Shown here piece after piece: positions 4,084 through 59,800 of a DNA stretch of 64,000 nt (positions are counted from its first letter, which is position 1; the number at the start of each line of letters is the position of its first letter). The stretch lies in assembly GCF_055900595.2 (NCBI RefSeq), contig NZ_CM148325.1; one strand, 5' to 3'. The position numbers and the translations under genes were made by a program. Under the pieces are notes generated by a model, which saw only the letters and a program-made list of their open reading frames with translations, was not told where the DNA came from and ran no database searches.

Positions 4084-5046
4084 TTACGTCTCCTCTTGGG
4101 AGTGGATAATATGGGTGCCTGTTTCGCCACGCAGTGCCGCGGACAGGCATTCAGGCGTGGTGATAATCACTCTTTTACCTCCACGTTCCAGGAACTCCAG
4201 ACTGGCAAGAATCTTCGGTAACATACTCCCAGGCGGGAAGTGACCCTCCTGCATGTAACGGGCCATCGTTAGGACATCCACTGTATCCAGTGCATGCTGG
4301 TTGGGTTTCCCAAAATGAATACTCACTTTTTCCACGCCGGTGGTGATCACCAGAATGTCGGCGTGAATTTCGCGAGCCAGTAGCGCGCTAGAGAGATCTT
4401 TGTCGATAACCGCGTCCACGCTTTGGTAATCCCCTGCGTCAGTACGCACCACCGGAATGCCACCGCCGCCCGCGCCAATCACCACAAAGCCTTGCTGGAT
4501 CAGAGTCTTAATGGCAGGTGCTTCGACAATACGTTTCGGTTCCGGCGAGGCGACCACGCGGCGATAGCCCCGTCCGGCATCTTCAACAAAACGCCAGTCA
4601 GGGTTTGCCTTTTGTAGTTCATCACGCTGGTTTTCACTAAAGAATGCACCGATGGGCTTGGTGGGATGGACAAACCCCGGATCGTTTTTATCCACTTCCA
4701 CCTGAGTCACCACGGTGACGGCTTTTTTCTCGCCGTGAGGCGCCAGCCGGTTGTTCAGCGCCTGCTGGATCAGATAGCCAATGCCGCCTTGCGTATCCGC
4801 CACACAGTTCGCCAGCGGCGTTAAGGGTAGCCCTTCGCGCTCGTGGGCTATCTCCGCGCGGCGTAAATCCAGACCGACCTGCGGCCCGTTGCCGTGGGTC
4901 AGCACAATGTCGTAATCGGAAGCCAGCATTTCCAGAACCGTATCGGCGACGGCCTTCACCGCCTCCGCCTGATGCTCAATCGACTGGCTGGCGTTATCTT
5001 TGATAATGCTGTTGCCACCAATGGCAACGACCACAAGTTCTTTCAT
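4084..5046 (-). CDS. yahI: Carbamate kinase-like protein (yahI-type)
   Basis: 320 aa, begins MKELVVVAIGGNSI, carbamate kinase fold motifs (THGNGPQVG, GAGGGGIPV); terminal gene of yah-type cluster. Confidence 0.8.
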   Translation of the reverse strand: MKELVVVAIGGNSIIKDNASQSIEHQAEAVKAVADTVLEMLASDYDIVLTHGNGPQVGLDLRRAEIAHEREGLPLTPLANCVADTQGGIGYLIQQALNNRLAPHGEKKAVTVVTQVEVDKNDPGFVHPTKPIGAFFSENQRDELQKANPDWRFVEDAGRGYRRVVASPEPKRIVEAPAIKTLIQQGFVVIGAGGGGIPVVRTDAGDYQSVDAVIDKDLSSALLAREIHADILVITTGVEKVSIHFGKPNQHALDTVDVLTMARYMQEGHFPPGSMLPKILASLEFLERGGKRVIITTPECLSAALRGETGTHIIHSQEET

Positions 5047-5072
5047 AGAATTATCTTCCGTTTGCAGGCTAT

Positions 5073-6623
5073 TCAGGTCGTTTTAGTCTCTTCCTGCTCA
5101 GACGCAGCCACTGTTTCACGGCTATCAATAACATGCTTGAGGGCAAACATAGCAAGCATCATCAGGTAGGCCACAACAAACACAATCGAGCTGCCTTCCG
5201 CAAAGCCAACCGCTGGGGAGTGAATCACGCCAAACAGCGATAACAGTGCTCCAAAGGATGCAGCTATCGCCCCGCGCAGCGGCTTATTCATAATGGCAAA
5301 GATAGCAATGCATCCCCACAGCATGCTGGCCAGCGGTGCACCGCTTCCCAGATGCATCAGTCCATCGTAATAGACGCCTTTGCTGTGCAACAGGTCGCTA
5401 CCAAGTTTCTCAGCGGATGTTCCGGCTGCGCCCATCACGCTGTTAACGATGGTCAATGCCCAGTTGGCGACCCATGGGAACAGACAGATGAAAATGACGG
5501 GAACCTCGACTTTAGGAGTTTCTCGCACCACCTGATTGGCGGTTACCACACCGATAAAAACCAGAATTGGCACTATAGCAGTCATGGGAATAATGGCGAG
5601 CATAAACGCGCCCAACCCAAACAATGGCACCAGAAACATAGTGATGCCTGATGCGAGGGTATAGCAGATACTAGCGCCCATAGCTTTCCAGCCTGCATGC
5701 CCAACATATACGGTTACCGGGAACGGATTACCCAGCATGCAACCGAGCATGGAGGCAAAGCCGTTCGCCATCATGACCTTACGGGTGTTGTATTCATCAC
5801 CAGCCGCGTGCGCACTTTCAATGTTCTCGAGGTCAAAAATGTAGTTAGCCAGGCCCAAAGGAACTGCAGAAGCCAGATATGGCAGAGCGTGCGGCAAACC
5901 TTGCAGGAAGCTCCTTACATGAATTTCCGGCGGGTTGAAGCCGAAGGAAGACATCGACGCTTTAATGTCTTCCGGGCTTTGTAAACCGGATATCCACGCT
6001 AGGGACGTACCAGCAATCAGCAACAGCAAACCGGTAGGAATATGGGGAAAAATCGGCTTCTTACCGAACCAGTTAATGAAGATCAATAACAGGACGATGA
6101 AAGAAACTGTCGGCGCTTCGAACGCTTGCAGCATCGGGTTCATTGCCAGCAGTAATAACCCCAGTCCGGACAGACAAGAAAGCAGCACTGTACGCGGGAT
6201 CATCTTGCGGATAGTCTCACCCAGGAAGGAGCCACCGACCAGGATCAACGCTTCGACAAAGCACCACACCAATCCTATCTGAATAGCAAAGTTGGCATCT
6301 TTGGTTTGCTGATAAACCGGCATCAGCACCAGGAATGTCACGGTAAAGATTGAGGGTGCGCTCGGTCCAGACGGCAGCGCCGTTACATCGCTACGACCGG
6401 TTTTCTTCACCATCTGTAGACCAAACCAGGAGTAGCAGACACTGGCCGCCAGCACTGCAAGACCAAAGGCAGGCGCAATGCGTCCATAGACAATTTCAGT
6501 AGGGATTCCGACGACAAAAATTAGCAGACCCATCATTGTCAGCAGGTTAGTCAGATTGTTGGTCATCAGTCCAAAGTAAGCCGCCCAGTCACCACGTTTC
6601 CATTCTAGTTTTATGCTGTTCAT
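5073..6623 (-). CDS. Polytopic membrane permease (nucleobase/AzgA-like family suspected)
   Basis: 516 aa, highly hydrophobic with many predicted TM helices; sits between DUF1116 and carbamate kinase genes. Confidence 0.65.
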   Translation of the reverse strand: MNSIKLEWKRGDWAAYFGLMTNNLTNLLTMMGLLIFVVGIPTEIVYGRIAPAFGLAVLAASVCYSWFGLQMVKKTGRSDVTALPSGPSAPSIFTVTFLVLMPVYQQTKDANFAIQIGLVWCFVEALILVGGSFLGETIRKMIPRTVLLSCLSGLGLLLLAMNPMLQAFEAPTVSFIVLLLIFINWFGKKPIFPHIPTGLLLLIAGTSLAWISGLQSPEDIKASMSSFGFNPPEIHVRSFLQGLPHALPYLASAVPLGLANYIFDLENIESAHAAGDEYNTRKVMMANGFASMLGCMLGNPFPVTVYVGHAGWKAMGASICYTLASGITMFLVPLFGLGAFMLAIIPMTAIVPILVFIGVVTANQVVRETPKVEVPVIFICLFPWVANWALTIVNSVMGAAGTSAEKLGSDLLHSKGVYYDGLMHLGSGAPLASMLWGCIAIFAIMNKPLRGAIAASFGALLSLFGVIHSPAVGFAEGSSIVFVVAYLMMLAMFALKHVIDSRETVAASEQEETKTT

Positions 6624-6735
6624 GGAATCTCCTTAACAGGTTAAGCATCGTTTGCGATCATGGAGATCGCCCAGCCCTGAAGGTAAACAACGTTTTCCGC
6701 TACTGTGGGGCTAACTGCGTTAGCCCCGGTTATTG

Positions 6736-8154
6736 TTATTGGCAGTAGTGGTCACGCCAGTTGAGGATCGCCTTTTCAAAACAAGTGAACGGCGGGTGAA
6801 CAATTCCTGCGCCGATCATGCCGATCCCTGCGTCTTTGTGCGCAATGGCTGTGTTAATTACCGGCAGAATGCCTGTACTGCCTACACGCGTAATATCGAT
6901 AGCGGTCGGTACGCCCATAAAACCAAGCAGGGGAATGGTGACGTTGGGGTTTTCTCCGAGAGTGATTTCTCTCATTTTACGTGAGAAATCAATAGCTTCC
7001 TCAACTGTTCCGCCCACCAGTGACACAATAGCTGGTGCCGTCGCCATAGCGAAACCGCCAACGCCGTAGGTTTCGGTAATTGCACTATCACCGATATCAC
7101 GTCCGGAATCCTCTAGCTTATAGCCCGCAAACATCGGCCCAATCACCTGCTGCGCCGGACCGGTAAACCACTTGCCCGGCAAACCGCTAATACGAAGACC
7201 GAACTCAACACCATTGCGTGCCATCGTTGTCACCACGGTGCTGTATTCAATGCCGTGCGCAGCGTCCATTGCGGCTTTACACATTGCCATCCATGTTGGT
7301 CCTGAGAAGTAATCACTACTGAGGACAAACTCGAACACCTCACGCTGCTGCTCAACAGGGTAGCCAGTCTGAATAATCCACGGCGTCAGCGTCTGAATCA
7401 GCAGCGCCGTCCCGGCGTTGTTGCGGTTATGGCACTCATCGCCCATATGCAGCGCCTGCGCTAACATCAAGTGCAGATCGATTTCGCCCGCCAGCTTCAT
7501 AGCATCGCGCAACATAGGTCCCAGTACATCTCGCATCCAGTTAAGACGCTCTATAACGCTCTGGTCGTTAGCGCCCATACGCAGGATCTTTGCCATCTGC
7601 TCGCTCATATTGGTATATGCGCGGTTTCCATAGGTTTTGTTCTCGACGATGTGCATAAACATCGATGCAGACGTGACACCCGCCATTGAGCCGACACAGT
7701 CATGTTCGTGGCACGGAGAGAAGATGATTTCACCTGAAGCAGCTAGTTCGGCGGCATCATCCAGATCTTTCGCCAGTCCTTCAAATACCAGAGCCCCGGT
7801 TACTGCGCCCTTCATTGCGCCGCACATTTTTTCCCAGTGGATTGGCGGCCCGGCGTGAAGGATAGTGTTACGGGTCATACCCGGCACGACGTTGATCGCC
7901 TGATCATAGCCAATTAGCACAGGATGCGACTGGATAATGCGTTCCAGCGCCAGCTGATTAGCAGCTGCAATTTTGTCTGCCAGTGGTGAAGCGGCAATGT
8001 CGTCCAGTGCCGTTACCACTTGTATGTTTCCTTGGCCTGGCGGTGTCCAGTCAAGTTGGGTTACCGGTACATTCTGCTTTTTCATGTCATCGCTGAACAT
8101 TTCGATACCGACATTAATAACGTTCAGCGGCTGATTAAACAGTGTCTGGCTCAT
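6736..8154 (-). CDS. yahG: DUF1116-family protein (yahG/ylbE-type)
   Basis: 472 aa; stop/start coupled with upstream FdrA-like gene at 8154; length and context match yah cluster. Confidence 0.7.
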   Translation of the reverse strand: MSQTLFNQPLNVINVGIEMFSDDMKKQNVPVTQLDWTPPGQGNIQVVTALDDIAASPLADKIAAANQLALERIIQSHPVLIGYDQAINVVPGMTRNTILHAGPPIHWEKMCGAMKGAVTGALVFEGLAKDLDDAAELAASGEIIFSPCHEHDCVGSMAGVTSASMFMHIVENKTYGNRAYTNMSEQMAKILRMGANDQSVIERLNWMRDVLGPMLRDAMKLAGEIDLHLMLAQALHMGDECHNRNNAGTALLIQTLTPWIIQTGYPVEQQREVFEFVLSSDYFSGPTWMAMCKAAMDAAHGIEYSTVVTTMARNGVEFGLRISGLPGKWFTGPAQQVIGPMFAGYKLEDSGRDIGDSAITETYGVGGFAMATAPAIVSLVGGTVEEAIDFSRKMREITLGENPNVTIPLLGFMGVPTAIDITRVGSTGILPVINTAIAHKDAGIGMIGAGIVHPPFTCFEKAILNWRDHYCQ

Positions 8155-11587: not shown

Positions 11588-12517
11588 ATGAATTCAATAT
11601 TTACGGAAGAAAACTTACTGGCATTTACTATGGCTGCCCGCTATAGAAGTTTCAGCAAGGCGGCGAAGGAACTGGGCTTAACCACATCGGCAATTAGTTA
11701 CACTATCAAGCGTATGGAAATGGGGCTTGACGTGGTGCTTTTTACCCGAACTACCCGTAGCATTGAGCTGACCGAGCCCGGGCACTACTTTTTTTGCAAA
11801 GCAACTGACCTGCTCAACGATTACCACTCCATCATACGTAGAGTTGATGCCATCGCTCAGGGAATTAAATCCCGGGTGCGCATTTGTATTAATCAACTGT
11901 TGTATACCCCTCAGCATACAGCTCGGCTTCTGCAAGTGCTCAGGGAACACTTTCCAACCTGCCAGATAGCTATTACTACAGAGGTGTATAATGGCGTCTG
12001 GGATTCACTCATTAATAACCAGGCTGATATCGCCATTGGCGCGCCCGATACGTTACTGGACGGTGGTGGAATTGATTACATTGAAATCGGCATGATTCGT
12101 TGGTTGTTCGCGATTTCTCCGGCTCATCCGCTGGCGTTTATTCCTGAGCCCATTTCTGAGAGTCAGTTACGTCTGTACCCGAACATCATGGTGGAAGACA
12201 CTGCAAACACTATTAACAAAAAAGTCGGCTGGCTGTTACACGGGCAAGAGTCGATTCTGGTTCCCGACTTTAATACTAAGCTTCAGTGCCAGATCCTGGG
12301 GGAGGGAATCGGTTTTCTGCCAGACTATATGGTGCGTGAAGCGATGGAAAAGTCATTGCTGGTGACACGGCAGATCCACAACCCACGTCAGGATTCACGA
12401 ATGCTGTTGGCAACCAGGCATTCGGCAAGCGGTCAAGTCACTCAGTGGATAAAAAGAGAATTTAGCTTACAAGGAATACTGACGGGGATTTATCAGGATT
12501 TGATGCATCGAGCGTGA
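11588..12517 (+). CDS. yahB: LysR-family transcriptional regulator (yahB-type), divergent from the yah cluster
   Basis: N-terminal HTH FTMAARYRSFSKAAKELGLTTSAISYTIKRME; ORF in track starts 11459 but Met at 11588 gives typical 310 aa. Confidence 0.8.
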   Translation: MNSIFTEENLLAFTMAARYRSFSKAAKELGLTTSAISYTIKRMEMGLDVVLFTRTTRSIELTEPGHYFFCKATDLLNDYHSIIRRVDAIAQGIKSRVRICINQLLYTPQHTARLLQVLREHFPTCQIAITTEVYNGVWDSLINNQADIAIGAPDTLLDGGGIDYIEIGMIRWLFAISPAHPLAFIPEPISESQLRLYPNIMVEDTANTINKKVGWLLHGQESILVPDFNTKLQCQILGEGIGFLPDYMVREAMEKSLLVTRQIHNPRQDSRMLLATRHSASGQVTQWIKREFSLQGILTGIYQDLMHRA

Positions 12518-48784: not shown

Positions 48785-50491
48785 ATGAAGCTTTCATCAT
48801 TTTTTGTGGAAAACTTTAAATGTATCGGTAGAGAGGTACACATTAAAATAGATGATATTATTATTTTAATTGGGCAGAATAATGTAGGAAAATCAACAAT
48901 CCTTGATGCTTATGAGAAATTTGCTGCTCTTGGAAAAGAAAAGGTCTTAGATATTAGCCATTTTCATAATGAAGATGTTTCAAAGCCAGTGATCATGACA
49001 GGAGTATTTACAGATATTACTGTAGAAGATGAAACGGCAATAGGAAAAAAATGGAAGCACAATGATCCAGTTTATGGTGAGTGTATTAAGTTCAGATGGG
49101 TATGGAATGCACCCGGTGAGTCGGCTAAAAAAGAGGCATTTGATCCAACTAAAGGACAAGGTGAATTTGTAGCTGGTGGCTTGGGCGGGTTTGATAGCAT
49201 AATTAAAAGCCGTATTCCTAAGCCACTTCGAATTAAACCTGATGATTCAGTCCTGAAAACACAGGAGCTTATAATCGAAATATTGAAAAGTAATGTGAAG
49301 GAATACCTCAGTAATGGGCCTGATTCCAAGGCTGATGTGATAGCCAAAATTGAATCCCTAACAAGCGCTCTGGTTGAGTCATCTAAAGCAGAATTTGATC
49401 GATTGCTTGGTCGTATAACAGACAATATAGAATCGATTTTTCCAGGGGTTATTATGGAATTGGTTCCTCAGTCGAAAGATCCTATTGATGAGAAGATTAT
49501 CGCTTCAGCATCCTATTTAAAGGTTCGAAACCCGACTAGTCGTTCAACTATGCTTGAACTCCAAGGAACCGGGCTTAAGCGTTCTTTACTGTGGTCTGCA
49601 TTGTCAGTACTTTCGCAAGAAGGAAAAAGCAAAAAAGGTGATGTTGTCAAGGAGTGTAATATCCTGCTTATAGATGAGCCAGAGGCTTTTTTGCATCCAC
49701 CAACAATCCGTGGCGCACGAGAGGCTTTGTATACATTTGCAGCCAATAATCCTGGTTGGCAGGTAATGGCTACCACGCACTCTCCAGTATTCATCGATTT
49801 GTCGAAAGATCATACGACAATTATTCGGGTTGATAAAGATAGCCAGAACAAATACATCTCAACAAACGATATTGGGTTTGATAAGGATGAGAAAGTCAAT
49901 CTTAAAATTGTTCGAGCATGTAATCCAATGGTAAATGAGTTTTTTTTCTATAATAAAATTGTTCTTGTGGAGGGCCCTACTGAAAAAATTGTACTGAATC
50001 ATCTTCAGGATACTCTGGGGATAGAGATGCATGTAATCGATTGTCTTGGTAAAGGTAATATACCTATGTTTGTTAAAATTCTTAATCAGTTCGATGTTCC
50101 TTATGTTGTTATTCATGATTCTGACTCACCTAAAATCCGTCGTAAAGGAAAATATGTGAACAACGGGATGTGGACTATAAATACTTTGATTAGAAATGAA
50201 GTTGCTAAATCAAAAAAAGGACGTATTTTTACTCAGGTGCCGCACTTTGAAGGCGAATTTTTTGGCGAAACTCTTACCTCTGGTAAGGTATCAAATGTGC
50301 TCGAGGTTCTCCAGAACGTTACGGCTGAAGAATACACTCGCTTAATAAGCGTTTATAGCCGTATTTTAAATGACGCAGAAGAATCATTATTTACTGGGAC
50401 ACTTGAGTCTTTTATGGCTAAAATTAATGCATATACGGCAGATAAAACTGCATTAACAGATCCAGAGTTATGGGGATTATCGGGTTTATAA
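48785..50491 (+). CDS. OLD-family ATPase-Toprim nuclease (class 1 OLD-like, stand-alone)
   Basis: 568 aa; Walker A GQNNVGKST; ABC-type ATPase core (LLIDEPEAFLHP); C-terminal Toprim (VLVEGPTEKIVL ... VVIHDSDSP); gene is AT-rich. Confidence 0.8.
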   Translation: MKLSSFFVENFKCIGREVHIKIDDIIILIGQNNVGKSTILDAYEKFAALGKEKVLDISHFHNEDVSKPVIMTGVFTDITVEDETAIGKKWKHNDPVYGECIKFRWVWNAPGESAKKEAFDPTKGQGEFVAGGLGGFDSIIKSRIPKPLRIKPDDSVLKTQELIIEILKSNVKEYLSNGPDSKADVIAKIESLTSALVESSKAEFDRLLGRITDNIESIFPGVIMELVPQSKDPIDEKIIASASYLKVRNPTSRSTMLELQGTGLKRSLLWSALSVLSQEGKSKKGDVVKECNILLIDEPEAFLHPPTIRGAREALYTFAANNPGWQVMATTHSPVFIDLSKDHTTIIRVDKDSQNKYISTNDIGFDKDEKVNLKIVRACNPMVNEFFFYNKIVLVEGPTEKIVLNHLQDTLGIEMHVIDCLGKGNIPMFVKILNQFDVPYVVIHDSDSPKIRRKGKYVNNGMWTINTLIRNEVAKSKKGRIFTQVPHFEGEFFGETLTSGKVSNVLEVLQNVTAEEYTRLISVYSRILNDAEESLFTGTLESFMAKINAYTADKTALTDPELWGLSGL

Positions 50492-51507
50492 AATTCTCCA
50501 TAAGGGATTTTAAATCAATGAGTTTATTTTTATGCAGATAGAGTCTTTGAGTGAATTGAAATATTAGTACTGTCGACCTGCTGTTTTTGTAATATGATGG
50601 ATTTGGTAGGGGGATGTAATTTTTGTGATAGTGGTTAATATTAAAATGTTTTAGTGTGGATTTTTAGAGTAAAATGATTTAAGTAGTGTTCATATAAAGC
50701 AAGTTTGTTTTTTTTGGGGGGGTGATATTGATAGTAATGTGTGATATATTTTATTGAAATTATTTGTTGTGTGTTGTGAGAATAACAGAGTGTGATTGAT
50801 AAGTATGACGTAAAGAATGAATTATTGGTTCGCTGTATCAGAACAGGTAGGTTATGTTTTATTGACGTTATTTCTAACGAAACTAATTAACTCTGAGTTG
50901 CTTTTGCGTTATCGTATATTTGATCGTTTTTCGTTATAAGAGAAAAGTTTTAGATATATAATTCTTTGAGTGATGTTGAAGTTGGTTTTATCTGTCAGGA
51001 AGTATTGACTATATATGAACATACTCAACGATGCTGCAACGAAAAGAAAATTACAACTGTCCAGTTAGGCAGGAAACTTAATGGCAGGTATGCAGATATG
51101 ATTGCTGAGTTAAAAGAAACAGTAGAGATGAGGGGGGAGGGGTAATTTCTTTTGAGATGGATATATTGAATTCTTTTAATGATGCGGATGAATATCACGG
51201 ACGTGTTAAACTGGAATTGGATATACCTGCTTCAGATATATTATATTGCCATGATTTTATTGATTCAAAACATGTAAACTCCTGGCTGGTTGAACCACAT
51301 GAGTGGGTGGTTATTAATCGTTCTCTTACTGGGATTGTTACAGTGCCAGTATCAGCAATAAAAATCTCTTATTGAAAAAATTATGTATGTAACTTACTTT
51401 ATATATATAAGGGTAAAAACAGTCCCGGTAATAATTAAATATTATTTAATGTTTATTGCTATGTATTGGAGATATAAGCGGGTTTCTTTTGCATAAAGTA
51501 AAAATAA

Positions 51508-52438
51508 ATGAATGATAATTTTTTAACGGAGAAAGTCCTTACTGGAGAGAATGTTCTGCGTGCAGCAATTGCTCGTATTGAGTGGGTTTTTGAAACATTT
51601 CCATCAGTTTGTCTCTCTTTTTCCGGTGGTAAAGATTCCACCGTGCTTTTCCATCTTTTGGCTGATGTGGCCCGCAGGAAAAAACGTCGTTTCTCTGTAC
51701 TGTTCATTGACTGGGAGGCTCAGTACCAGTGCACCATTGAACATATTCAGAAGATGCGGGAAATGTACCATGATGTGACGGATACCTTTTACTGGGTGGC
51801 ACTTCCCCTGACCACGGTAAACGGTGTCTCGCAGTTTCAACCGGAATGGATATGCTGGGAGTCGGGCGTGAAGTGGGTTCGCCAGCCACCGGAGGGGGCC
51901 ATTACAGATATGGCGTATTTTCCCTTTTACCGGTATGCCATGACGTTTGAAGAATTTGTTCCGGCATTTTCTTCCTGGTTTGCAGACAATAAATGTGGTG
52001 TGGCAGTACTGACCGGTGTCCGTGCGGATGAGTCCCTTAACCGGTTCATGGGACTGGTATCCCAGCGCAAACTGAGATACGCCGATGATAAGCCCTGGAC
52101 CACGGCATCGCCTGAAGGGTTTTACTACACCATGTATCCGCTGTATGACTGGAAAACTCGTGATATCTGGATATATCACACCAGAACCCGTGCCATCTAC
52201 AATCCCCTGTATGATCTGATGTACCGTGCCGGCGTACCGTTACGCAACATGCGTGTCTGTGAACCTTTTGGTCCTGAACAACGTAAGGGACTGTGGCTTT
52301 ACCATGTTCTGGAGCCGGATACCTGGGCCAGGATGTGTGAGCGGGTGTCAGGGGCTGCCAGCGGGGCACTTTATGCCAATGAAAGCGGTGCTTATTTTGC
52401 CCTGCGTAAGCGCATATCAAAACCAGCCCATCATACCT
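51508..52438 (+). pseudogene. PAPS reductase-like (phosphoadenosine phosphosulfate reductase family, IbrA-like) gene, 3' end truncated by IS911
   Basis: PP-loop motif SFSGGKDSTVLFHLL; ORF runs from native sequence into IS911 left end at 52439. Confidence 0.7.
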
Positions 52439-52510
52439 TGAAGTGGTTTACTGAATTTGGCCACCTGAACAGAGGTGATATGCTCACCTCAGAACAACAC
52501 AGGTGCCATA

Positions 52511-53658
<1,148 letters not shown>

Positions 53659-53802
53659 CTCGGTGGCCAGTTTTTGTTGACCACTTCATATCTGTAAGAC
53701 TCTCATAAAGAATGATTTCTGGTGCCGGACCCTCTCCTTCAGTCCTAACAAACCCCGGCACTATGAACGTTATCTGCAGCGTATGAAAGAAAGGAGGAAG
53801 GA

Positions 53803-54441
53803 ATGGGGGATTCTGTGACAGCGGAGGTACTGAGTGACATGATTCGTCAGTACTTCAGCCAGGAACGACCAGAAGAAGAGACCATACAGGCTCTGAATCA
53901 TCTGCGCAGGGTGCTTCATGAGGTCAGTCCATTTGCACAGGAGCCTGTGGACTGTGTGCTGTGGGTGAAAGCAGATGAGGTGGTGGCCAATGATTATAAT
54001 CCTAATGTCATGGCGCCGGGTGAGAAAAAACTGCTGAAACATTCGCTGGAGCAGGACGGGTTCACGCAGCCTGTGGTTGTCTCGGAAGAGAAGGAGCATT
54101 ATCTGGTGGTGGATGGTTTTCATCGTCAGTTACTGGGCAGGGAAGCAGGTACGGGAAAACGTCTGAAGGGCTGGTTGCCAGTGACCTGTATTAATCCGGA
54201 GAGAAAGGGACAGGCCGCACGCATTGCCGCGACCATTCGACATAACCGGGCCAGGGGAAAACACCAGATAACTTCAATGTCTGATATTGTCAGGGATCTT
54301 TCACGTCTGGGCTGGACGGATGAACGCATTGGCATGGAGCTGGGTATGGACCAGGATGAAGTTCTCAGGTTGAAACAGATTAGCGGGCTGACGGAGCTGT
54401 TTCAGGAAGAGGATTTCAGCCCGGCATGGACGGTTCGCTGA
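53803..54441 (+). CDS. ParB-like nuclease domain protein (IbrB-like)
   Basis: 212 aa; ParB N-terminal-like segment (VVANDYNPNVMAPGEKKLLKHSLEQDGFTQPVVV...YLVVDGFHR). Confidence 0.65.
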   Translation: MGDSVTAEVLSDMIRQYFSQERPEEETIQALNHLRRVLHEVSPFAQEPVDCVLWVKADEVVANDYNPNVMAPGEKKLLKHSLEQDGFTQPVVVSEEKEHYLVVDGFHRQLLGREAGTGKRLKGWLPVTCINPERKGQAARIAATIRHNRARGKHQITSMSDIVRDLSRLGWTDERIGMELGMDQDEVLRLKQISGLTELFQEEDFSPAWTVR

Positions 54442-54480
54442 GACTGTCAGATATGTGTATTATTTCAGTGAGTTGATGTT

Positions 54481-54789
54481 TTGAGCAGGAAAAATAGTAC
54501 CCCGGAAGTCGTGGAAGACATGGTTGCACAGACGCTGGAGGCGGCGGGTTGCTGGCGCAGAGCTTCTGCCCGCTGGCTTTTTGTTATGGGAAATGTTGAA
54601 TGTACAGAAGCACAACGGGAGTGGTTGTTGTTACGCAGGAATTATTGCCTGGCGCAGATATCGTCCCCGCCGCTACCTGAAAAGCTGGATATCAGCGAGG
54701 TGGCGAAAGCTGCAGATGCCACGCTGAGGCGAATGGGGATTGCCAGTCCGTCTGGGGAGGTATTCAGAAAAGGTACACTGGTCTGTTGA
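54481..54789 (+). CDS. Hypothetical protein
   Basis: ORF only. Confidence 0.35.
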   Translation: MSRKNSTPEVVEDMVAQTLEAAGCWRRASARWLFVMGNVECTEAQREWLLLRRNYCLAQISSPPLPEKLDISEVAKAADATLRRMGIASPSGEVFRKGTLVC

Positions 54790-54809
54790 TATTCAGGTAA
54801 CAGGTATTA

Positions 54810-55454
54810 ATGATGAAGAAAGTAATGGTGGACAGCGTATCAGTGCCATGGCAGCTTTTGTGCGATGAACATGGTTTTACCCGGGAGCACCACAATCAGT
54901 TGAAGAAGTTCAGCCCGGAGGCATTACGTGAAATTATTGCTGAAATAGCCTGCTGCCATCCATCAACCAGTGTATTGCTCAGGAATAAGTGGCTGACACC
55001 GCCGGAGGATATTCCGGAGCAGGTTACCCGTGAATACGAACGAAGAATACAGAACTGTCCATCGTTCAGGAGCGAGAAGGAAGCGGAATCCTGGTTAAAT
55101 GAACTGTTTTTTGCTGTGATTGCTCCGCTATACCGTGTTGCCCCCGAACAAACAGAACAGGTTGAGTCCTTTGTTCTGCAGCTTATTGCCGAGCAGGAGC
55201 GGGTTTGGGAGCTTATTTTAACCAATGATGGTTATTCATGGCATTGCGCACTTTATGATATATTATTTCATCTGGTTTTACGAAATATGGAAGACCAGCC
55301 TGAACATCAGAGACAGCGAATAACAAAAATACTTAATGAGTCCGATACAAAACGGGTTGCAGAAGAGATTAAATTTCGGATTCAATATCTTCAGGATGAA
55401 GAACAAAAAAGAGTTTTAAGTGAACTGGTAAATGTCCTGACTTCAAAAAGATAA
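54810..55454 (+). CDS. Hypothetical protein
   Basis: 214-aa ORF with plausible RBS spacing; no family recognised. Confidence 0.45.
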   Translation: MMKKVMVDSVSVPWQLLCDEHGFTREHHNQLKKFSPEALREIIAEIACCHPSTSVLLRNKWLTPPEDIPEQVTREYERRIQNCPSFRSEKEAESWLNELFFAVIAPLYRVAPEQTEQVESFVLQLIAEQERVWELILTNDGYSWHCALYDILFHLVLRNMEDQPEHQRQRITKILNESDTKRVAEEIKFRIQYLQDEEQKRVLSELVNVLTSKR

Positions 55455-55495
55455 AACATGCCGGAGTAATTTTTTCTATATGTTAATAAAATCGG

Positions 55496-55563
55496 TGCGT
55501 ATTACCATGAAGGAGATCGATGAGTAACCGTTATTGGATGATCTCCTTCCATAAAAATACGCG
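55496..55563. repeat. MITE-like element: two ~33-bp inverted repeats matching the termini of the IS3-family element in asrB, separated by 2 bp
   Basis: TGCGTATTACCATGAAGGAGATCGATGAGTAAC-CG-TTATTGGATGATCTCCTTCCATAAAAATACGCG; compare termini at 30737 and 32480. Confidence 0.7.
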
Positions 55564-56876
55564 TAATCTAATGGTTCGCTCTGTACCAAAAGAAGACATT
55601 GTTCACAATATCGAGTTAATCATTCGATCGTTGAATATTTTCATTGAAAAATTTCTCAGTATAGAATATATCAATGTTGAGGGTATTCCTCTTACATCTC
55701 GAAGGATAACTATCATGGGTCTTAAACCTGGTCCAAAACCAATTGCTAAGTCGACAGGAAAACCGGATCAACGCCGACGCGATAATAAAGATACTCCTGG
55801 CAATACTCCGGGACTAAAGCCAAGTAAGTCCACAGGTAAGTAAAAAAATAAGGGTATAAATAAGCATTTATACCCTGACTATATATCCAGTCCACCGAAG
55901 GTGTTTCAGCAGCCAGATGCTCGTTCTTTCTATATCATACGCCTTTGCCCCGTACCCTTTCGCAAGCAAAGACTCTGGTAAATACTCGTCATATTTATCC
56001 AGATCCTTATCAGGAACAACTGTAGCAGGCTCAAATTCTGAAGGTGCAAAATGGCATCTGAATCGATCACGACTTGGCATGCTTCCGATCATTGATTGGC
56101 ATCCTGCCAATCGTATCGTTCCGGCAAACTCATATTGACGCATTTTTCAGGCGAGCCACTGGGAGCGCATACGAATGGGCGCCGTCTGACGATGGTTGAT
56201 TTATTTTGTTGTACAGGGGCGATCGCCAGGCAGGTGCCGGAGGCTGGCTCTGAAGTGCTGAGTCGGGTAATCGCGTCAGGCTGCGCAGTACTGACATGGG
56301 TACTGGTGGCAGGTGATGAAGTTCGACTCCGGAAATGCCGCCGGGTTGATTGCGTATTCCGCTCTATTCGATCACGGATTGGCCCCCTGTGTACGAACAT
56401 CTGACGGCAGGTGTTGCTCATACAGGGTAAATCCCTCAAGAGGCAACAACTTTGTCAGTCGCTACTCCGGCCACTCAGGCAGACGCGTCAGGATGTTCGT
56501 CAGCCCGGCATGTGACTCTAGGCCATTACGTTTTGCTGTATCCAGAAGACTCATTATCTGTGCTGCATGTTTTCCGTCCCATGATAACCCGATGGATGGC
56601 GTGTTCGTAGATATTGTTGCAGTATGGAACCATATTCTAAGATACTTTGCTGTAAGAAATGCTACGTTTGATGAGCTCTATTTTATTATTCTGCCAGCTA
56701 AAAATTAGTATTGAATATAAAACTCACCACATTGAGAATAAATGAAACAAATATATTTAATCAGGAAGTTAAAAACAGATAACATGGGTGTAATACAATA
56801 AGGTACAGCCAGTAATTCCGGGCTTGCGGAGTTGCTGGATCGTATGACTTAGACGTGATAAAAAACAGGGAATACG

Positions 56877-59800
56877 ATGAAATTCACTGAAGATACTCGG
56901 GTAAAAATCCCCGTAATCCTCCACCTGATACGGTTGGGATACTACTACCTGTCCCTTAAAGAACAACGCTGGGACAAAGAAACCAACATCTTCCCTGACC
57001 TCTTTACTGCTGCGATTGGCCGAATAAACCCCGGACTTGCGCCAGACGACATCGGACGCCTGTTAAAAGACCTCACGCTGCTTCTCGACAACGATGATCT
57101 GGGCCGCGCCTTCTTCGAAAAACTCAGTGATCGTTCCGGTATCAAACTGATCGACTTTGATAACTTCAACAACAACAGTTTCCATGTCGTCACCGAATTG
57201 ACCTGCGAAAACGATGATGAAGAATTCCGCCCGGACATCACGCTGCTGATCAACGGCATGCCGCTAATCTTTATCGAAGTGAAAAAACCCAATAATCGGG
57301 AAGGCATCGTCGCAGAACGCAATCGCATCAACGAACGCTTTAAAAACCCCAAATTCAAACGCTTCGCCAACATCACCCAGTTCATGATCTTCTCCAATAA
57401 CATGGAGTATGACGACAGCGACCCGGAGCCGATTCAAGGGGCATTCTACGCCAGCAGCTCTTACAGCAACCCGGTATTCAACTACTTCCGCGAAGAAGAA
57501 CTCTTCAACCTGACCAACTTACTGAAACCGCTGTCAGACGAAACCGAGATCGCCGTCCTGAAAGACAACAACCTGGAAGTCATCCGTACCAACCCGGAAT
57601 TCCAGACCAACAAAGATCACAACTGCCCGACTAACCGCCTTTGCACCGCGCTGTTGAGCCGGGATCGGCTGGCATTTATTCTGCGCTATGCGCTGGTGTA
57701 TGTCGCCGAACCGGGCGGAATCCAGAAACACATCATGCGCTACCCGCAGCTCTTCGCCACTAAAGCAATCGAGCGCAAACTGAACGCTGGTGTGAAGAAA
57801 GGCATCATCTGGCACACCCAGGGCAGCGGGAAAACCGCGCTGGCTTACTACAACGTGCGCTTCCTGACAGATTACTTCCAGAATCAGCAGGTGATCCCCA
57901 AATTCTACTTTATTGTTGACCGTCTGGATCTGCTCCAGCAGGCGCAGCGCGAGTTCACCGCCCGTGGCTTAATCGTTCACCTTATCGACTCCCGCGAAGC
58001 CTTCACTCGCGATATCAAAGCGACGCAGGCGCTGCACAACCACCACGGCAAAGCGGAAATCACCGTCGTCAACATCCAGAAATTCCGCGATGACCCGGAC
58101 GTCGTCACTACCAAAGACTACGATATCAACATCCAGCGCGTGTACTTCCTCGATGAAGTCCACCGCAGCTACAACCCCAAAGGAAGTTTCCTGGCGAACT
58201 TAAGCCAGTCGGACACCAACGCCATCAAAATTGGCCTGACCGGTACGCCTCTGCTGGGCACAGACTACAACTCCCGCGACCTCTTCGGCGACTACATCCA
58301 CAAATACTACTACAACGCCTCCATTGCCGACGGCTACACGCTGCGCCTGATCCGCGAAGAGATCGCCACCAACTACCGAATGATCCTGCAACAGGCGCTA
58401 AAAGAGGTGGAAGTCAGAATGGGCGATGTGGATCGCAAAGACATCTACGCCCATCCCAGCTTCGTCAAGCCGATGTTGAACTACATCATCACCGACTTTG
58501 CCAAAAGCCGGGGCGCGCTGAATGATGACACCATCGGTGGCATGGTGATTTGTGACAGCTCTGAACAGGCCAAACAGATGTTTGAGATATTCAACACTGA
58601 CTACGCCGAATCGCCCACCACCGTTTACCACATCCACACCAAAGAAACGCGGAAAATCAAACGCGCCGCCCTGATCCTACACGACGTCGGCAGCAAGCAG
58701 GAACGCAAAGAGTGGGTGGAGCAATTCAAAGCGGGAGAGATTGACCTGCTGTTCGTCTACAACATGTTGCTCACTGGCTTTGACGCCAAACGGCTAAAAA
58801 AACTCTACCTCGGGCGGGTGATCAGAAAGCACAACCTGCTCCAGGCGCTGACCCGCGTCAACCGAACCTACAACCACTTCCGCTACGGCTATGTGGTGGA
58901 CTTCGCCGACATCCGCCAGGAATTTGACGCCACCAACAAAGCCTACTTCGAAGAGCTACAGGCTGAACTGGGCGATGAAATGGAGCATTACTCCCGCCTG
59001 TTCAAATCAGCGGATGAGATCCGCGAAGAAATCGAACATATCAAAGACGTTCTGTTTAGCTTTGATACCGAAAACGCGGAAATCTTCACTGACCAGATAA
59101 ACCAGATCCAGGACCGGGAAACCGCGCTGGTACTGAAGAACGCGCTGACCGACGCCCGCAGCCTTTACAACCTGATTCGCCTCCAGGGCAACACAGAGTT
59201 TCTCCAGGCGCTGGATTTCAACAAACTCAACATCCTCTACCGCGAAGCCAGCCGCCGCCTCGACTTACTCAACCTGAAAGCGGATCTGGTACAGGGCGTT
59301 GACCTCTCCGGCCTGCTGAACCGGGCGCTGGAAGAGGTGATCTTTGAATTCCATAAAGTGGGCGAAGAAGAGCTGGTACTGGCCGACGAGCTGAAAGAGA
59401 CGCTGCGCCGCACCCGCGAAGCGCTGGCCGCCAACTTCGACCAGCAGGACCCGCAGTTCGTCAGCCTGAAAGACGAACTGGAGCGTCTGTTTAAGAAAAA
59501 GAAACTCAGCGAAGTCACCCAGCAAGAAATGGTTGCGAATATCGGCACACTCAATAAAATTCATGGCCGCATCAAAGAGCTAAACCGCCAAAACAACCTG
59601 CTGCGCCAGAAATACCGGGGCGACGTGAAATACGCGCGTACCCACAAACGCCTGCGTGAGCGCGGCGGCCTGAGCGAGCCGGAGCGTAAAATCTTCGAAG
59701 CACTGCTTAGCGTTAAGCTGGATGCAGATGAAAAAGTGCTGAACAACAGCCAGATACTGAACAATGAAAGCTATTTTGAGCGGCATATGGAGTCATGTGT

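What the first reader, a model, noticed from the sequence alone, without database searches (positions are those of the whole stretch)
54481..55454. Two uncharacterised ORFs between the ParB-like gene and the MITE-like element
Both are co-oriented with the ParB-like gene and 21 bp apart, suggesting an operon with it. They could be further components of the disrupted PAPS-reductase/ParB module or cargo of the defence island.
Basis: inference. Interest (0 to 1): 0.3.

Follow-up and report, generated by a model that had tools for sequence, protein, structure and literature searches.

The report
PchD regulator gene plus unknown partner
The two ORFs are real, conserved E. coli accessory genes: the first is the known PerC-family regulator PchD, and the second is a helical-repeat protein of unknown function that always follows it, so this is an ordinary, already catalogued locus with one open functional question.

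The parts
51508..52438 (+). 5' part of ibrA (PAPS-reductase-like plus DUF3440), interrupted
   Evidence: Pfam PAPS_reduct E 4.8e-17 and DUF3440 E 6.9e-14. Collinear with intact ibrA of L002, L001 and L011 up to window position 52438.
52439..53688 (+). IS3-family insertion sequence (orfA 52475-52813, orfB 52840-53658) that replaces 172 bp of ibrA
   Evidence: ORF translations. In L002, L001 and L011 the flanks are 172 bp apart. Annotated as IS3 family transposase in related genomes.
53689..53818 (+). 3' remnant of ibrA, overlapping the ibrB start by 16 bp
   Evidence: Alignment to L002 resumes at 53689, equal to L002 11666. In L002 ibrA ends at 11795 and ibrB starts at 11780.
53803..54441 (+). 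ibrB (IbrB-like, ParB N-terminal-domain protein), intact
   Evidence: phrog_2159 E 1.4e-82. Weak ParB_N hit. Annotated 'IbrB-like domain-containing protein' in relatives. dN/dS 0.07-0.10.
54511..54789 (+). ORF1: PerC-family regulator, orthologue of PchD (ECs1388).
54810..55454 (+). [not shown]
   Evidence: No Pfam, NCBIfam, PHROG or PADLOC family. Homologues. AF2 model pLDDT 81.7, pTM 0.78, 12 helices. hhalign to DUF6880 proteins: probability 98.7%, E 2e-16. pI 5.5.
55520..55843 (+). ORF3: 107-aa basic protein (pI 10.5) with a K/P/G-rich tail and a strong Shine-Dalgarno (AAGGAG). Conserved after ORF2 in some relatives, absent in O157 and O26
   Evidence: Annotated as a hypothetical protein in 042 and 504239. 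100% identical to 504239; dN/dS 0.28 against 042. Sequence; pI and GC.
55851..55876 (-). 11-bp-stem hairpin followed by a T-run on the minus strand, marking the end of the conserved block
   Evidence: Terminator-like site; sequence.

Best explanation
The two ORFs are the distal genes of the E. coli 'IbrAB island' operon ibrA-ibrB-pchD-ORF2(-ORF3).

ORF1 is PchD, a roughly 90-aa helical PerC-family protein. Its characterised relative Pch activates horizontally acquired promoters by displacing H-NS-type silencing complexes. [quoted passage not shown]

ORF2 is a soluble, acidic alpha-solenoid with no catalytic motif, equivalent to the N-terminal domain of DUF6880 proteins. It is co-transcribed with pchD and most likely acts as a protein-binding accessory, either a modulator or an adaptor of the regulator. 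It is not an enzyme.

In this window ibrA has been destroyed by IS3, so any IbrA-dependent activity is lost, while ibrB, pchD and ORF2 remain intact.

Shown here: gene identity, orthology, conservation, synteny, fold class and DUF6880 homology. Taken from the literature: co-induction on host-cell contact, and anti-silencing by Pch. Inferred: that PchD is an anti-silencer, that ORF2 binds proteins, and that it acts on PchD or IbrB.
For: ORF1 identity:
- PF06069 E 2.3e-35.
- About 95% identity and identical synteny with the O157 and O26 gene between ibrB and the ORF2 homologue, named pchD/ECs1388.

Operon:
- Fixed order and spacers in four annotated genomes and in about 1,000 of 5,426 complete genomes.
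- No terminator predicted between the genes.
- ibrB, perC and hyp3 were induced together, 2.4-7.6 fold, on adherence in two STEC strains.
- pchD rose 3.7 fold on lettuce at day 5.

perC as a recurrent third gene of ibrAB:
- Two divergent modules (L032-35 on plasmids, L036-39) carry IbrA at 85-89%, IbrB at 88-90% but PerC at only about 63% identity.

ORF2-PerC linkage beyond ibrAB:
- L003/L004: ORF2-like then perC, with a 4-bp overlap.
- L014: perC, DUF6933, then ORF2-like. L003 is not E. coli.

ORF2 as a real, non-enzymatic scaffold:
- Confident helical model.
- Conserved residues are mostly hydrophobic or structural.
- hhalign to the DUF6880 N-terminal domain gives 98.7% probability.

Mechanism of the family: Pch relieves H-NS/StpA/Hha/YdgT silencing at LEE1 (PMC4764244).
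Against: - PchD has no detected effect on LEE, and only small effects on curli and biofilm when expressed alone; its function is described as elusive.
- A fused PerC-linker-ORF2 AlphaFold run gave pTM 0.51 and no gain in confidence, so it gives no support for a direct complex.
- ORF2-like genes occur without PerC in at least four other contexts (L006, L008, L013, L016). L005 and L007 also show no PerC but are too short to judge.
- PerC-bearing ibrAB modules exist without ORF2.
- GC drops from 55% in perC to 43% in ORF2 and 38% in ORF3, which suggests a separate origin.
- ORF2 evolves faster than its neighbours, with dN/dS up to 0.59.
- The transcriptomic evidence comes from other strains in which no IS interrupts the operon.
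Confidence: 0.55

Rival explanations
1. ORF2 (with ORF3) is independent mobile-island cargo that merely sits at the 3' end of the ibrAB-pchD operon. Its function would relate to the DUF6880 family, which travels with restriction-modification systems, integrases and transposons. It could, for example, be an accessory or regulator of DNA-targeting systems rather than a partner of PchD.
For: - ORF2 is homologous to the DUF6880 N-terminal domain.
- DUF6880 genes lie next to type I or type III RM genes in L012, L017, L018, L022 and L026, and next to Tn3, IS elements or integrases elsewhere.
- In the window, ORF2 lies 1.4 kb upstream of hsdRMS.
- There is a GC break between perC and ORF2/ORF3.
- ORF2-like genes occur without PerC or IbrAB in several loci.
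- The fused model gave no confident complex.
Against: - In E. coli, ORF2 follows pchD at a fixed 20-nt distance whatever lies downstream: RM in the window, a helicase/TerB system in 042, IS elements in O157 and O26.
- Its prevalence equals that of PchD-type perC, 1,056 against 1,095 genomes.
- It is co-induced with ibrB and perC.
- PerC reappears next to ORF2-like genes in two unrelated contexts.
- Adjacency of DUF6880 to RM may only reflect shared residence in variable islands.
- There is no PADLOC hit.
Confidence: 0.25
2. ibrA-ibrB-ORF1-ORF2 would be a Dnd/BREX-like nucleic-acid modification or anti-phage module, in which the PAPS-reductase-like enzyme and the ParB-like protein modify DNA, and ORF1 and ORF2 are further components such as a regulator and a specificity or sensor subunit.
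For: - IbrA gives weak hits to BrxP (E 1.8e-7) and DndC (E 1.4e-4), and to DndC in NCBIfam.
- IbrB is ParB-like, as are DndB and DpdB.
- The locus is flanked by an OLD-family nuclease (PADLOC Old, E 1.5e-78) and a type I RM system.
- ibrA/ibrB-like pairs are common in phages (phrog_2302 and phrog_2159).
Against: - There is no PADLOC model for IbrB, ORF1, ORF2 or ORF3.
- PerC is a regulator family.
- ibrAB occurs without perC and ORF2.
- ibrA is inactivated here by IS3 and independently in O26 11368 by a frameshift, while the downstream genes stay intact. That pattern is not expected if they only work as parts of one enzyme complex.
Confidence: 0.12
3. One or both ORFs are spurious or decaying and make no functional protein.
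For: - ORF2 has no family assignment and a rather high dN/dS, up to 0.59 against O157.
- One genome carries an IS1 inside ORF2.
- The operon's first gene is broken in this window.
Against: - ORF1 has a Pfam hit at E 2e-35.
- ORF2 has full-length homologues down to 28% identity with conserved motifs.
- The structure model is confident.
- ORF2 is intact in more than 1,000 genomes.
- Expression is published.
Confidence: 0.02

Closest known systems
PchD (ECs1388) of E. coli O157:H7 Sakai, the group 2 PerC homologue on SpLE1 / O-islands 43 and 48 (the tellurite-adherence island)
   Different: The island context differs. Here the module lies between an OLD-family nuclease and a type I RM system beside a T6SS remnant, not in the ter/iha island. 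ibrA is disrupted by IS3, and the allele differs by a few residues.
PerC of EPEC and PchA/B/C of EHEC (Pfam PF06069), activators of LEE1/ler that counteract H-NS silencing
   Same: Same Pfam family, with the match covering model positions 2-88 of 90. Small helical protein encoded on horizontally acquired DNA.
   Different: PchD-type proteins do not activate LEE and have no established target. They are encoded after ibrAB rather than in a prophage or after perA-perB.
'hyp3' (ECO26_1340) of STEC, proposed in 2020 as a candidate virulence gene (PMC7649339)
   Same: ORF2 is the orthologue. The gene after ibrB and perC in the tellurite-adherence island of O26:H11 11368 is WP_001333354.1, the same protein as in O157 EDL933, and it is 90% identical to ORF2.
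   Different: That paper reports only expression and prevalence, with no fold, homology or function. The equation hyp3 = ORF2 rests on island location, consecutive locus tags and my reading of the O26 locus, not on a sequence given in the paper.
DUF6880 (Pfam PF21810) proteins of Enterobacterales and Shewanella, about 460 aa
   Same: ORF2 residues 23-209 align to residues 4-190 of these proteins (hhalign probability 98.7%, E 2e-16), including the LLxN(K/G)WL(T/S)xPxD(I/V)L...(E/A)Y motif.
   Different: ORF2 is less than half their length and lacks the C-terminal half that carries the Pfam-scoring region. It does not hit PF21810 itself. Many DUF6880 genes are followed by an overlapping RecX-like gene, whereas ORF2 is preceded by perC, and PerC and RecX-like proteins are not detectably homologous.
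IbrA/IbrB of the E. coli ECOR-9 IbrAB island (Sandt et al. 2002) and the K-12 paralogues YbdN/YbdM
   Same: The upstream genes of the operon are IbrA-like and IbrB-like. ybdM is annotated as IbrB-like.
   Different: The original paper could not be read here. Some ibrAB modules have neither perC nor ORF2.

Membership tests
PerC / Pch family (Pfam PF06069), for ORF1 | Sequence match to the PerC profile above the curated threshold over most of the model | tested here: met
   121.2 bits against a cut-off of 22.6, E 2.3e-35, model positions 2-88 of 90.
PerC / Pch family (Pfam PF06069), for ORF1 | Small (about 90-130 aa) helical protein encoded on horizontally acquired DNA | tested here: met
   89-102 aa depending on the start. 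Helices are predicted at pLDDT 74-84 for the first ~50 residues. The gene is present in only 1,095 of 5,426 complete E. coli genomes.
PerC / Pch family (Pfam PF06069), for ORF1 | Activates transcription of silenced horizontally acquired promoters (LEE1/ler for PerC and PchA-C) | not testable with these tools
   The literature reports little effect of PchD on LEE. Anti-silencing has been shown for Pch.
PchD orthologue group (ECs1388), for ORF1 | High identity and conserved position between ibrB and the 214-aa gene | tested here: met
   About 95% identity to the O157 protein. Synteny. Naming.
DUF6880 (Pfam PF21810), for ORF2 | Match to the PF21810 profile above threshold | tested here: not met
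   No PF21810 hit for ORF2 or its short homologues, even at E up to 1.
DUF6880 (Pfam PF21810), for ORF2 | Homology to the family's proteins by profile-profile comparison | tested here: met
   hhalign probability 98.7%, E 2.1e-16, 184 columns, covering only the N-terminal ~190 residues of the 460-aa proteins. phmmer gives E 5.6e-5 and 3.4e-4. tblastn to Shewanella DUF6880 gives E 3e-4.
DUF6880 (Pfam PF21810), for ORF2 | Full-length architecture of about 460 aa with the C-terminal TPR-like half | tested here: not met
   ORF2 and all its close relatives are 194-219 aa.
IbrAB-island operon (ibrA-ibrB-perC-ORF2) | Co-oriented genes with overlapping or short spacers and conserved order across genomes | tested here: met
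   976 genomes carry the ibrB-perC-ORF2 block. No terminator is predicted inside it.
IbrAB-island operon (ibrA-ibrB-perC-ORF2) | Intact ibrA and ibrB | tested here: not met
   ibrA is interrupted by IS3 with loss of 172 bp. ibrB is intact.
IbrAB-island operon (ibrA-ibrB-perC-ORF2) | Co-transcription or co-regulation | not testable with these tools
   Published co-induction in two STEC strains. There are no data for this strain, in which IS3 separates the native promoter from ibrB.
Known anti-phage defence systems (PADLOC-DB 2.0) | Match of the proteins to a defence-system model | tested here: not met
   No hit for ORF1, ORF2, ORF3 or IbrB. There are only weak BrxP and DndC hits for IbrA.
HEAT/ARM-type alpha-solenoid fold, for ORF2 | Structural similarity to solved helical-repeat proteins | tested here: inconclusive
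   [not shown]

The most novel reading that the evidence does not exclude
PerC-family regulators and the short DUF6880-N-like solenoid form a mobile two-gene regulatory pair. The solenoid would be the partner (co-activator, antagonist or signal-sensing subunit) that PchD needs to act. That would explain why PchD expressed alone has no clear phenotype, and why the pair recurs with different gene orders outside the ibrAB island.
Probability: 0.2. Interest if true: 0.5.

Novelty: already known. Interest (0 to 1): 0.22.

Why it matters
It matters only modestly. PchD is a named regulator without a known target. Its constant neighbour ORF2, which I equate with the published 'hyp3', was reported in about a fifth of E. 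coli genomes and in 82.6% of EAEC genomes, and it is induced on contact with gut epithelial cells.

Three results from this work give concrete handles for experiments on how the IbrAB island regulates horizontally acquired surface and prophage genes:
- pchD is a recurrent third gene of ibrAB modules.
- ORF2 is a stand-alone DUF6880 N-terminal domain.
- ORF2-like and PerC genes re-associate outside ibrAB.

For genome annotation, ORF1 should be labelled pchD-like, and the start codon used for it is inconsistent across databases.

Tried and rejected
1. Family scans of ORF2 against Pfam, NCBIfam, PHROGs and PADLOC found nothing significant.
2. Sequence search of the PDB for both ORFs found nothing below E 0.5.
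3. Foldseek of the ORF2 model against PDB and BFVD found nothing at E <= 0.001. The afdb50 library was unavailable.
4. Scans of one genome per species (GTDB) and of IMG/VR with the NKWLT motif found no relative of ORF2.
5. tblastn against phage records found no match. Against plasmid records it found only mis-binned E. coli chromosome pieces and two Shewanella DUF6880 genes.
6. I tested whether the 214-aa hypothetical gene upstream of ibrA in relatives is a paralogue of ORF2. Rejected: BLASTP E 0.21.
7. I tested whether the 214-aa gene before perC in L014 is IbrB-like. Rejected: BLASTP E 3.1; it is a sigma70-r4-type HTH protein.
8. I tested whether PerC is homologous to the RecX-like partner of DUF6880. 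Rejected: hhalign probability 0.2%.
9. AlphaFold of a PerC-(GGGGS)6-ORF2 fusion with a partly paired alignment gave pTM 0.51 and no support for a complex. The tool returns no PAE or coordinates, so this is a weak negative.
10. An Rfam scan of 50000-57500 found no RNA family.
11. A repeat search of 55300-57000 for terminal inverted repeats of a MITE found only one weak 16-nt pair.
12. Sandt et al. 2002 could not be read. No paper mentions DUF6880.

Full report
**1. What is in the sequence**

The + strand carries two ORFs, at 54481-54789 (TTG start, 102 aa) and 54810-55454 (ATG start, 214 aa). They lie downstream of a ParB-like gene at 53803-54441 and have the same orientation. The spacer between them is 20 nt, not 21.

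Upstream lies a PAPS-reductase-like gene starting at 51508. It is broken by an IS3-family element at about 52439-53688, which replaces 172 bp of the gene. The last 130 bp of the gene resume at 53689 and overlap the ParB-like gene by 16 bp. Downstream come a third conserved ORF (55520-55843), IS66 debris and a type I hsdRMS system starting at 56877.

The window is E. coli-like. Its best long match is 97.7% to several E. coli chromosomes, where the same block lies beside a T6SS remnant.

**2. ORF1 is a PerC-family regulator, the orthologue of PchD**

- It matches Pfam PF06069 at E 2.3e-35.
- PGAP labels the homologous gene 'PerC family transcriptional regulator' in every related genome examined.
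- In O157:H7 EDL933 and O26:H11 11368 the same gene (WP_000226520.1) sits between the IbrB-like gene and a 214-aa hypothetical gene. It is about 95% identical to ORF1.
- PchD is the sole 'group 2' Pch. It has little effect on LEE, and its function is called elusive.
- For Pch in EHEC, activation has been shown to work by relieving H-NS/StpA/Hha/YdgT silencing.

The start codon needs correcting. The ATG at 54520 that PGAP uses is ATT in strain 504239. A homologue in L014 starts two codons upstream of the position equivalent to 54511. The Pfam alignment starts at residue 11 of the 102-aa form. GTG 54511 (92 aa) is the best guess, and databases hold all three lengths.

**3. ORF2 is a real protein of an unnamed small family**

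No library gives it a family. A word-indexed search of 5.8 billion proteins found 39 clusters, and every one that carries a source name is Escherichia. An exhaustive phmmer search of 1.84 billion representatives found 35 hits. These include roughly full-length (194-201 aa) homologues at 34-43% identity and two 460-aa proteins at weak E-values.

The aligned family has invariant and near-invariant residues around the motif LLRNKWLTxPxDIL...EY. dN/dS among E. coli alleles is 0.16-0.59, higher than for ibrB (0.07-0.10) or perC (0.09-0.27) but below 1.

Profile-profile comparison shows that ORF2 residues 23-209 are homologous to residues 4-190 of DUF6880 proteins (probability 98.7%, E 2e-16). ORF2 itself does not hit PF21810 and lacks the C-terminal half of those proteins. 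It is therefore a stand-alone version of their N-terminal domain, not a member by the Pfam criterion. No paper in the library mentions DUF6880.

**4. Linkage**

*Prevalence in complete E. coli genomes.*

| Element | Genomes with a match (of 5,426) |
|---|---|
| ORF2 | 1,056 |
| PchD-type perC | 1,095 |
| ibrB-perC-ORF2 block, at least 80% coverage | 976 |
| ibrB, including the ybdM paralogue | 2,511 |

ORF2 therefore travels with PchD-type perC, while ibrAB is about twice as common.

*ibrAB modules with and without perC and ORF2.* Two divergent PerC paralogues (about 63% identity to ORF1) also sit directly after IbrA (85-89% identity) and IbrB (88-90% identity). One is on plasmids with FaeA and GerE-type regulators. 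The other is beside AraC-type regulators and fimbrial genes. Neither locus has an ORF2 homologue. A widespread chromosomal ibrAB variant has neither perC nor ORF2.

*ORF2-like genes in other contexts.* Distant ORF2-like genes (36-49% identity) are found as follows:

| Locus | Context of the ORF2-like gene |
|---|---|
| L003/L004 | PRiA4_ORF3, then ORF2-like, then perC with a 4-bp overlap; not E. coli |
| L014 | perC, DUF6933, then ORF2-like |
| L007 | after PRiA4_ORF3 |
| L013 | directly after a T6SS VasL gene |
| L005, L006, L008 | after Crp-like, zf-ClpX or DUF2913 genes |
| L016 | after a TPM_phosphatase-domain gene; the ORF2-like gene is frameshifted |

Two of eight independent non-ibrAB contexts therefore carry a PerC gene within two genes. 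PerC genes are rare in a genome, so this is unlikely to be chance. That is my rough estimate, not a computed statistic.

*Signs of a separate origin.* GC content falls from 55% in perC to 43% in ORF2 and 38% in ORF3. The window is 042-like across ibrB-perC and 504239-like from mid-ORF2 onward. The block is therefore a mosaic.

**5. Expression**

A 2020 RNA-seq study found ibrB, perC and 'hyp3' (consecutive locus tags) induced 2.4-7.6 fold in two STEC strains after 3 h on T84 and Caco-2 cells. It placed hyp3 (ECO26_1340) in the tellurite-adherence island and found it in 5,475 of 25,527 genomes and in 82.6% of EAEC genomes. In O26:H11 11368 the gene after ibrB and perC in that island is the ORF2 orthologue. 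I equate hyp3 with ORF2 on that basis; this is an inference from position, not from a sequence in the paper. pchD was also induced 3.7 fold on lettuce at day 5.

**6. Mechanism**

*Shown here:* identity, orthology, conserved operon-like arrangement, fold class and DUF6880 homology.

[quoted passage not shown] The original Sandt et al. 2002 paper could not be read.

*Inferred:* PchD acts as an anti-silencer or modulator at non-LEE targets together with IbrAB. ORF2 is a protein-binding accessory of that regulator.

A direct test was possible only crudely. A PerC-linker-ORF2 fusion model gave pTM 0.51, which does not support a fixed complex. I put the partner model at about 0.2, and the broader 'regulatory operon with an accessory scaffold' reading at about 0.55.

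The main rival is that ORF2 is independent island cargo related to DUF6880. DUF6880 genes lie next to RM systems, integrases or transposons in five or more loci and are often followed by an overlapping RecX-like gene. PerC and RecX-like proteins are not detectably related.

The defence or DNA-modification reading rests only on weak BrxP/DndC similarity of IbrA and on the neighbourhood. Two facts argue against ORF1 and ORF2 being obligate parts of one enzyme complex. ibrA has been inactivated independently here and in O26 while the downstream genes stay intact, and ibrAB exists without them.

**7. Verdict**

'Uncharacterised' is wrong for ORF1 and right, in function only, for ORF2. Both genes are already catalogued, as pchD/ECs1388 and as ECs1389/'hyp3'. 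The modest new points are these:
- ORF2 is homologous to the N-terminal domain of DUF6880 proteins.
- perC recurs as a fast-diverging third gene of ibrAB modules.
- ORF2-like and PerC genes re-associate elsewhere.
- The start codon used for pchD is inconsistent across databases.

Interest is low to moderate.

Noticed in passing
window 52439-53688 (flanks 52438 and 53689): An IS3-family element, in the same orientation as the operon, replaces 172 bp of ibrA. ibrA is therefore a pseudogene, and ibrB-pchD-ORF2 are cut off from the native upstream promoter. Read-through or an outward promoter of the IS may now drive them.
   Followed up: partly
L040 26922-28153 (E. coli O26:H11 11368): ibrA is independently inactivated by a frameshift in O26:H11 11368, while ibrB, perC and the ORF2 orthologue remain intact. 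Loss of ibrA with retention of the downstream genes is recurrent.
   Followed up: partly
window 50835-51375: The 214-aa hypothetical gene that precedes ibrA in strains 042 and 504239 is a remnant here. Its first 100 bp are missing and the rest is split into two frames (ORFs 50966-51145 and 51157-51375). Upstream of it the window carries a different nuclease cassette: an OLD-family ATPase-nuclease at 48785-50491 (PADLOC Old, E 1.5e-78).
   Followed up: partly
window 55520-55843: ORF3 is a 107-aa basic protein (pI 10.5, GC 38%) with a strong AAGGAG ribosome-binding site and a K/P/G-rich tail. It is annotated and conserved after ORF2 in 042 and 504239 but absent in O157 and O26.
   Followed up: partly
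window 55455-56876: This stretch is a patchwork, not an evident MITE. It consists of the ORF3 segment shared with 042-type loci, followed by IS66-derived debris that is multi-copy in E. coli (up to 50 places per genome). Only one weak 16-nt inverted pair was found.
   Followed up: partly
window 55851-55876 and 55868-56143 (minus strand): There is an 11-bp-stem hairpin with a T-run on the minus strand, directly after a 91-aa minus-strand ORF that is not annotated in relatives. It may be a terminator for that ORF or a bidirectional stop after ORF3.
   Followed up: no
window 53803-55843 compared with L001 and L002: The alleles are mosaic. ibrB and perC are closer to strain 042 (95-97% nucleotide identity). 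From about 55100 onward the sequence is nearly identical to strain 504239. The first 100 bp of ORF2 differ from both (13 mismatches each), so the N-terminus of ORF2 is hypervariable.
   Followed up: partly
window 54511-55843: Base composition steps down along the operon: perC 55% GC, ORF2 43%, ORF3 38%. ORF2 and ORF3 probably joined the ibrAB-perC unit from another source.
   Followed up: no
L012 5989-7688; L020, L021, L023 (about 5001-6832); L017, L018, L022, L026: Full-length DUF6880 genes in Shewanella plasmids and several Enterobacterales are often followed by an overlapping small RecX-like gene. They lie beside type I or type III restriction-modification genes, integrases or Tn3. This is an uncharacterised two-gene unit of mobile islands.
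   Followed up: partly
L003 7374-8917 and L007 2-1096: A PRiA4_ORF3 (PF07929) gene lies immediately upstream of the ORF2-like gene in two independent metagenomic loci. This is a second recurrent neighbour besides PerC.
   Followed up: no
L002 12497 (strain 504239) and window 54481/54511/54520: Public annotation of pchD-type genes is inconsistent: 89-, 92- and 102-aa versions exist. In strain 504239 the annotated start is an ATT codon, whereas a GTG three codons upstream is conserved.
   Followed up: yes
L032-L035 and L036-L039: In divergent ibrAB-perC modules IbrA and IbrB stay 85-90% identical to the window's type, while PerC drops to about 63%. PerC is the fast-diverging member. These modules sit beside fimbrial or adhesin regulators (FaeA, GerE-type, AraC-type).
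   Followed up: partly
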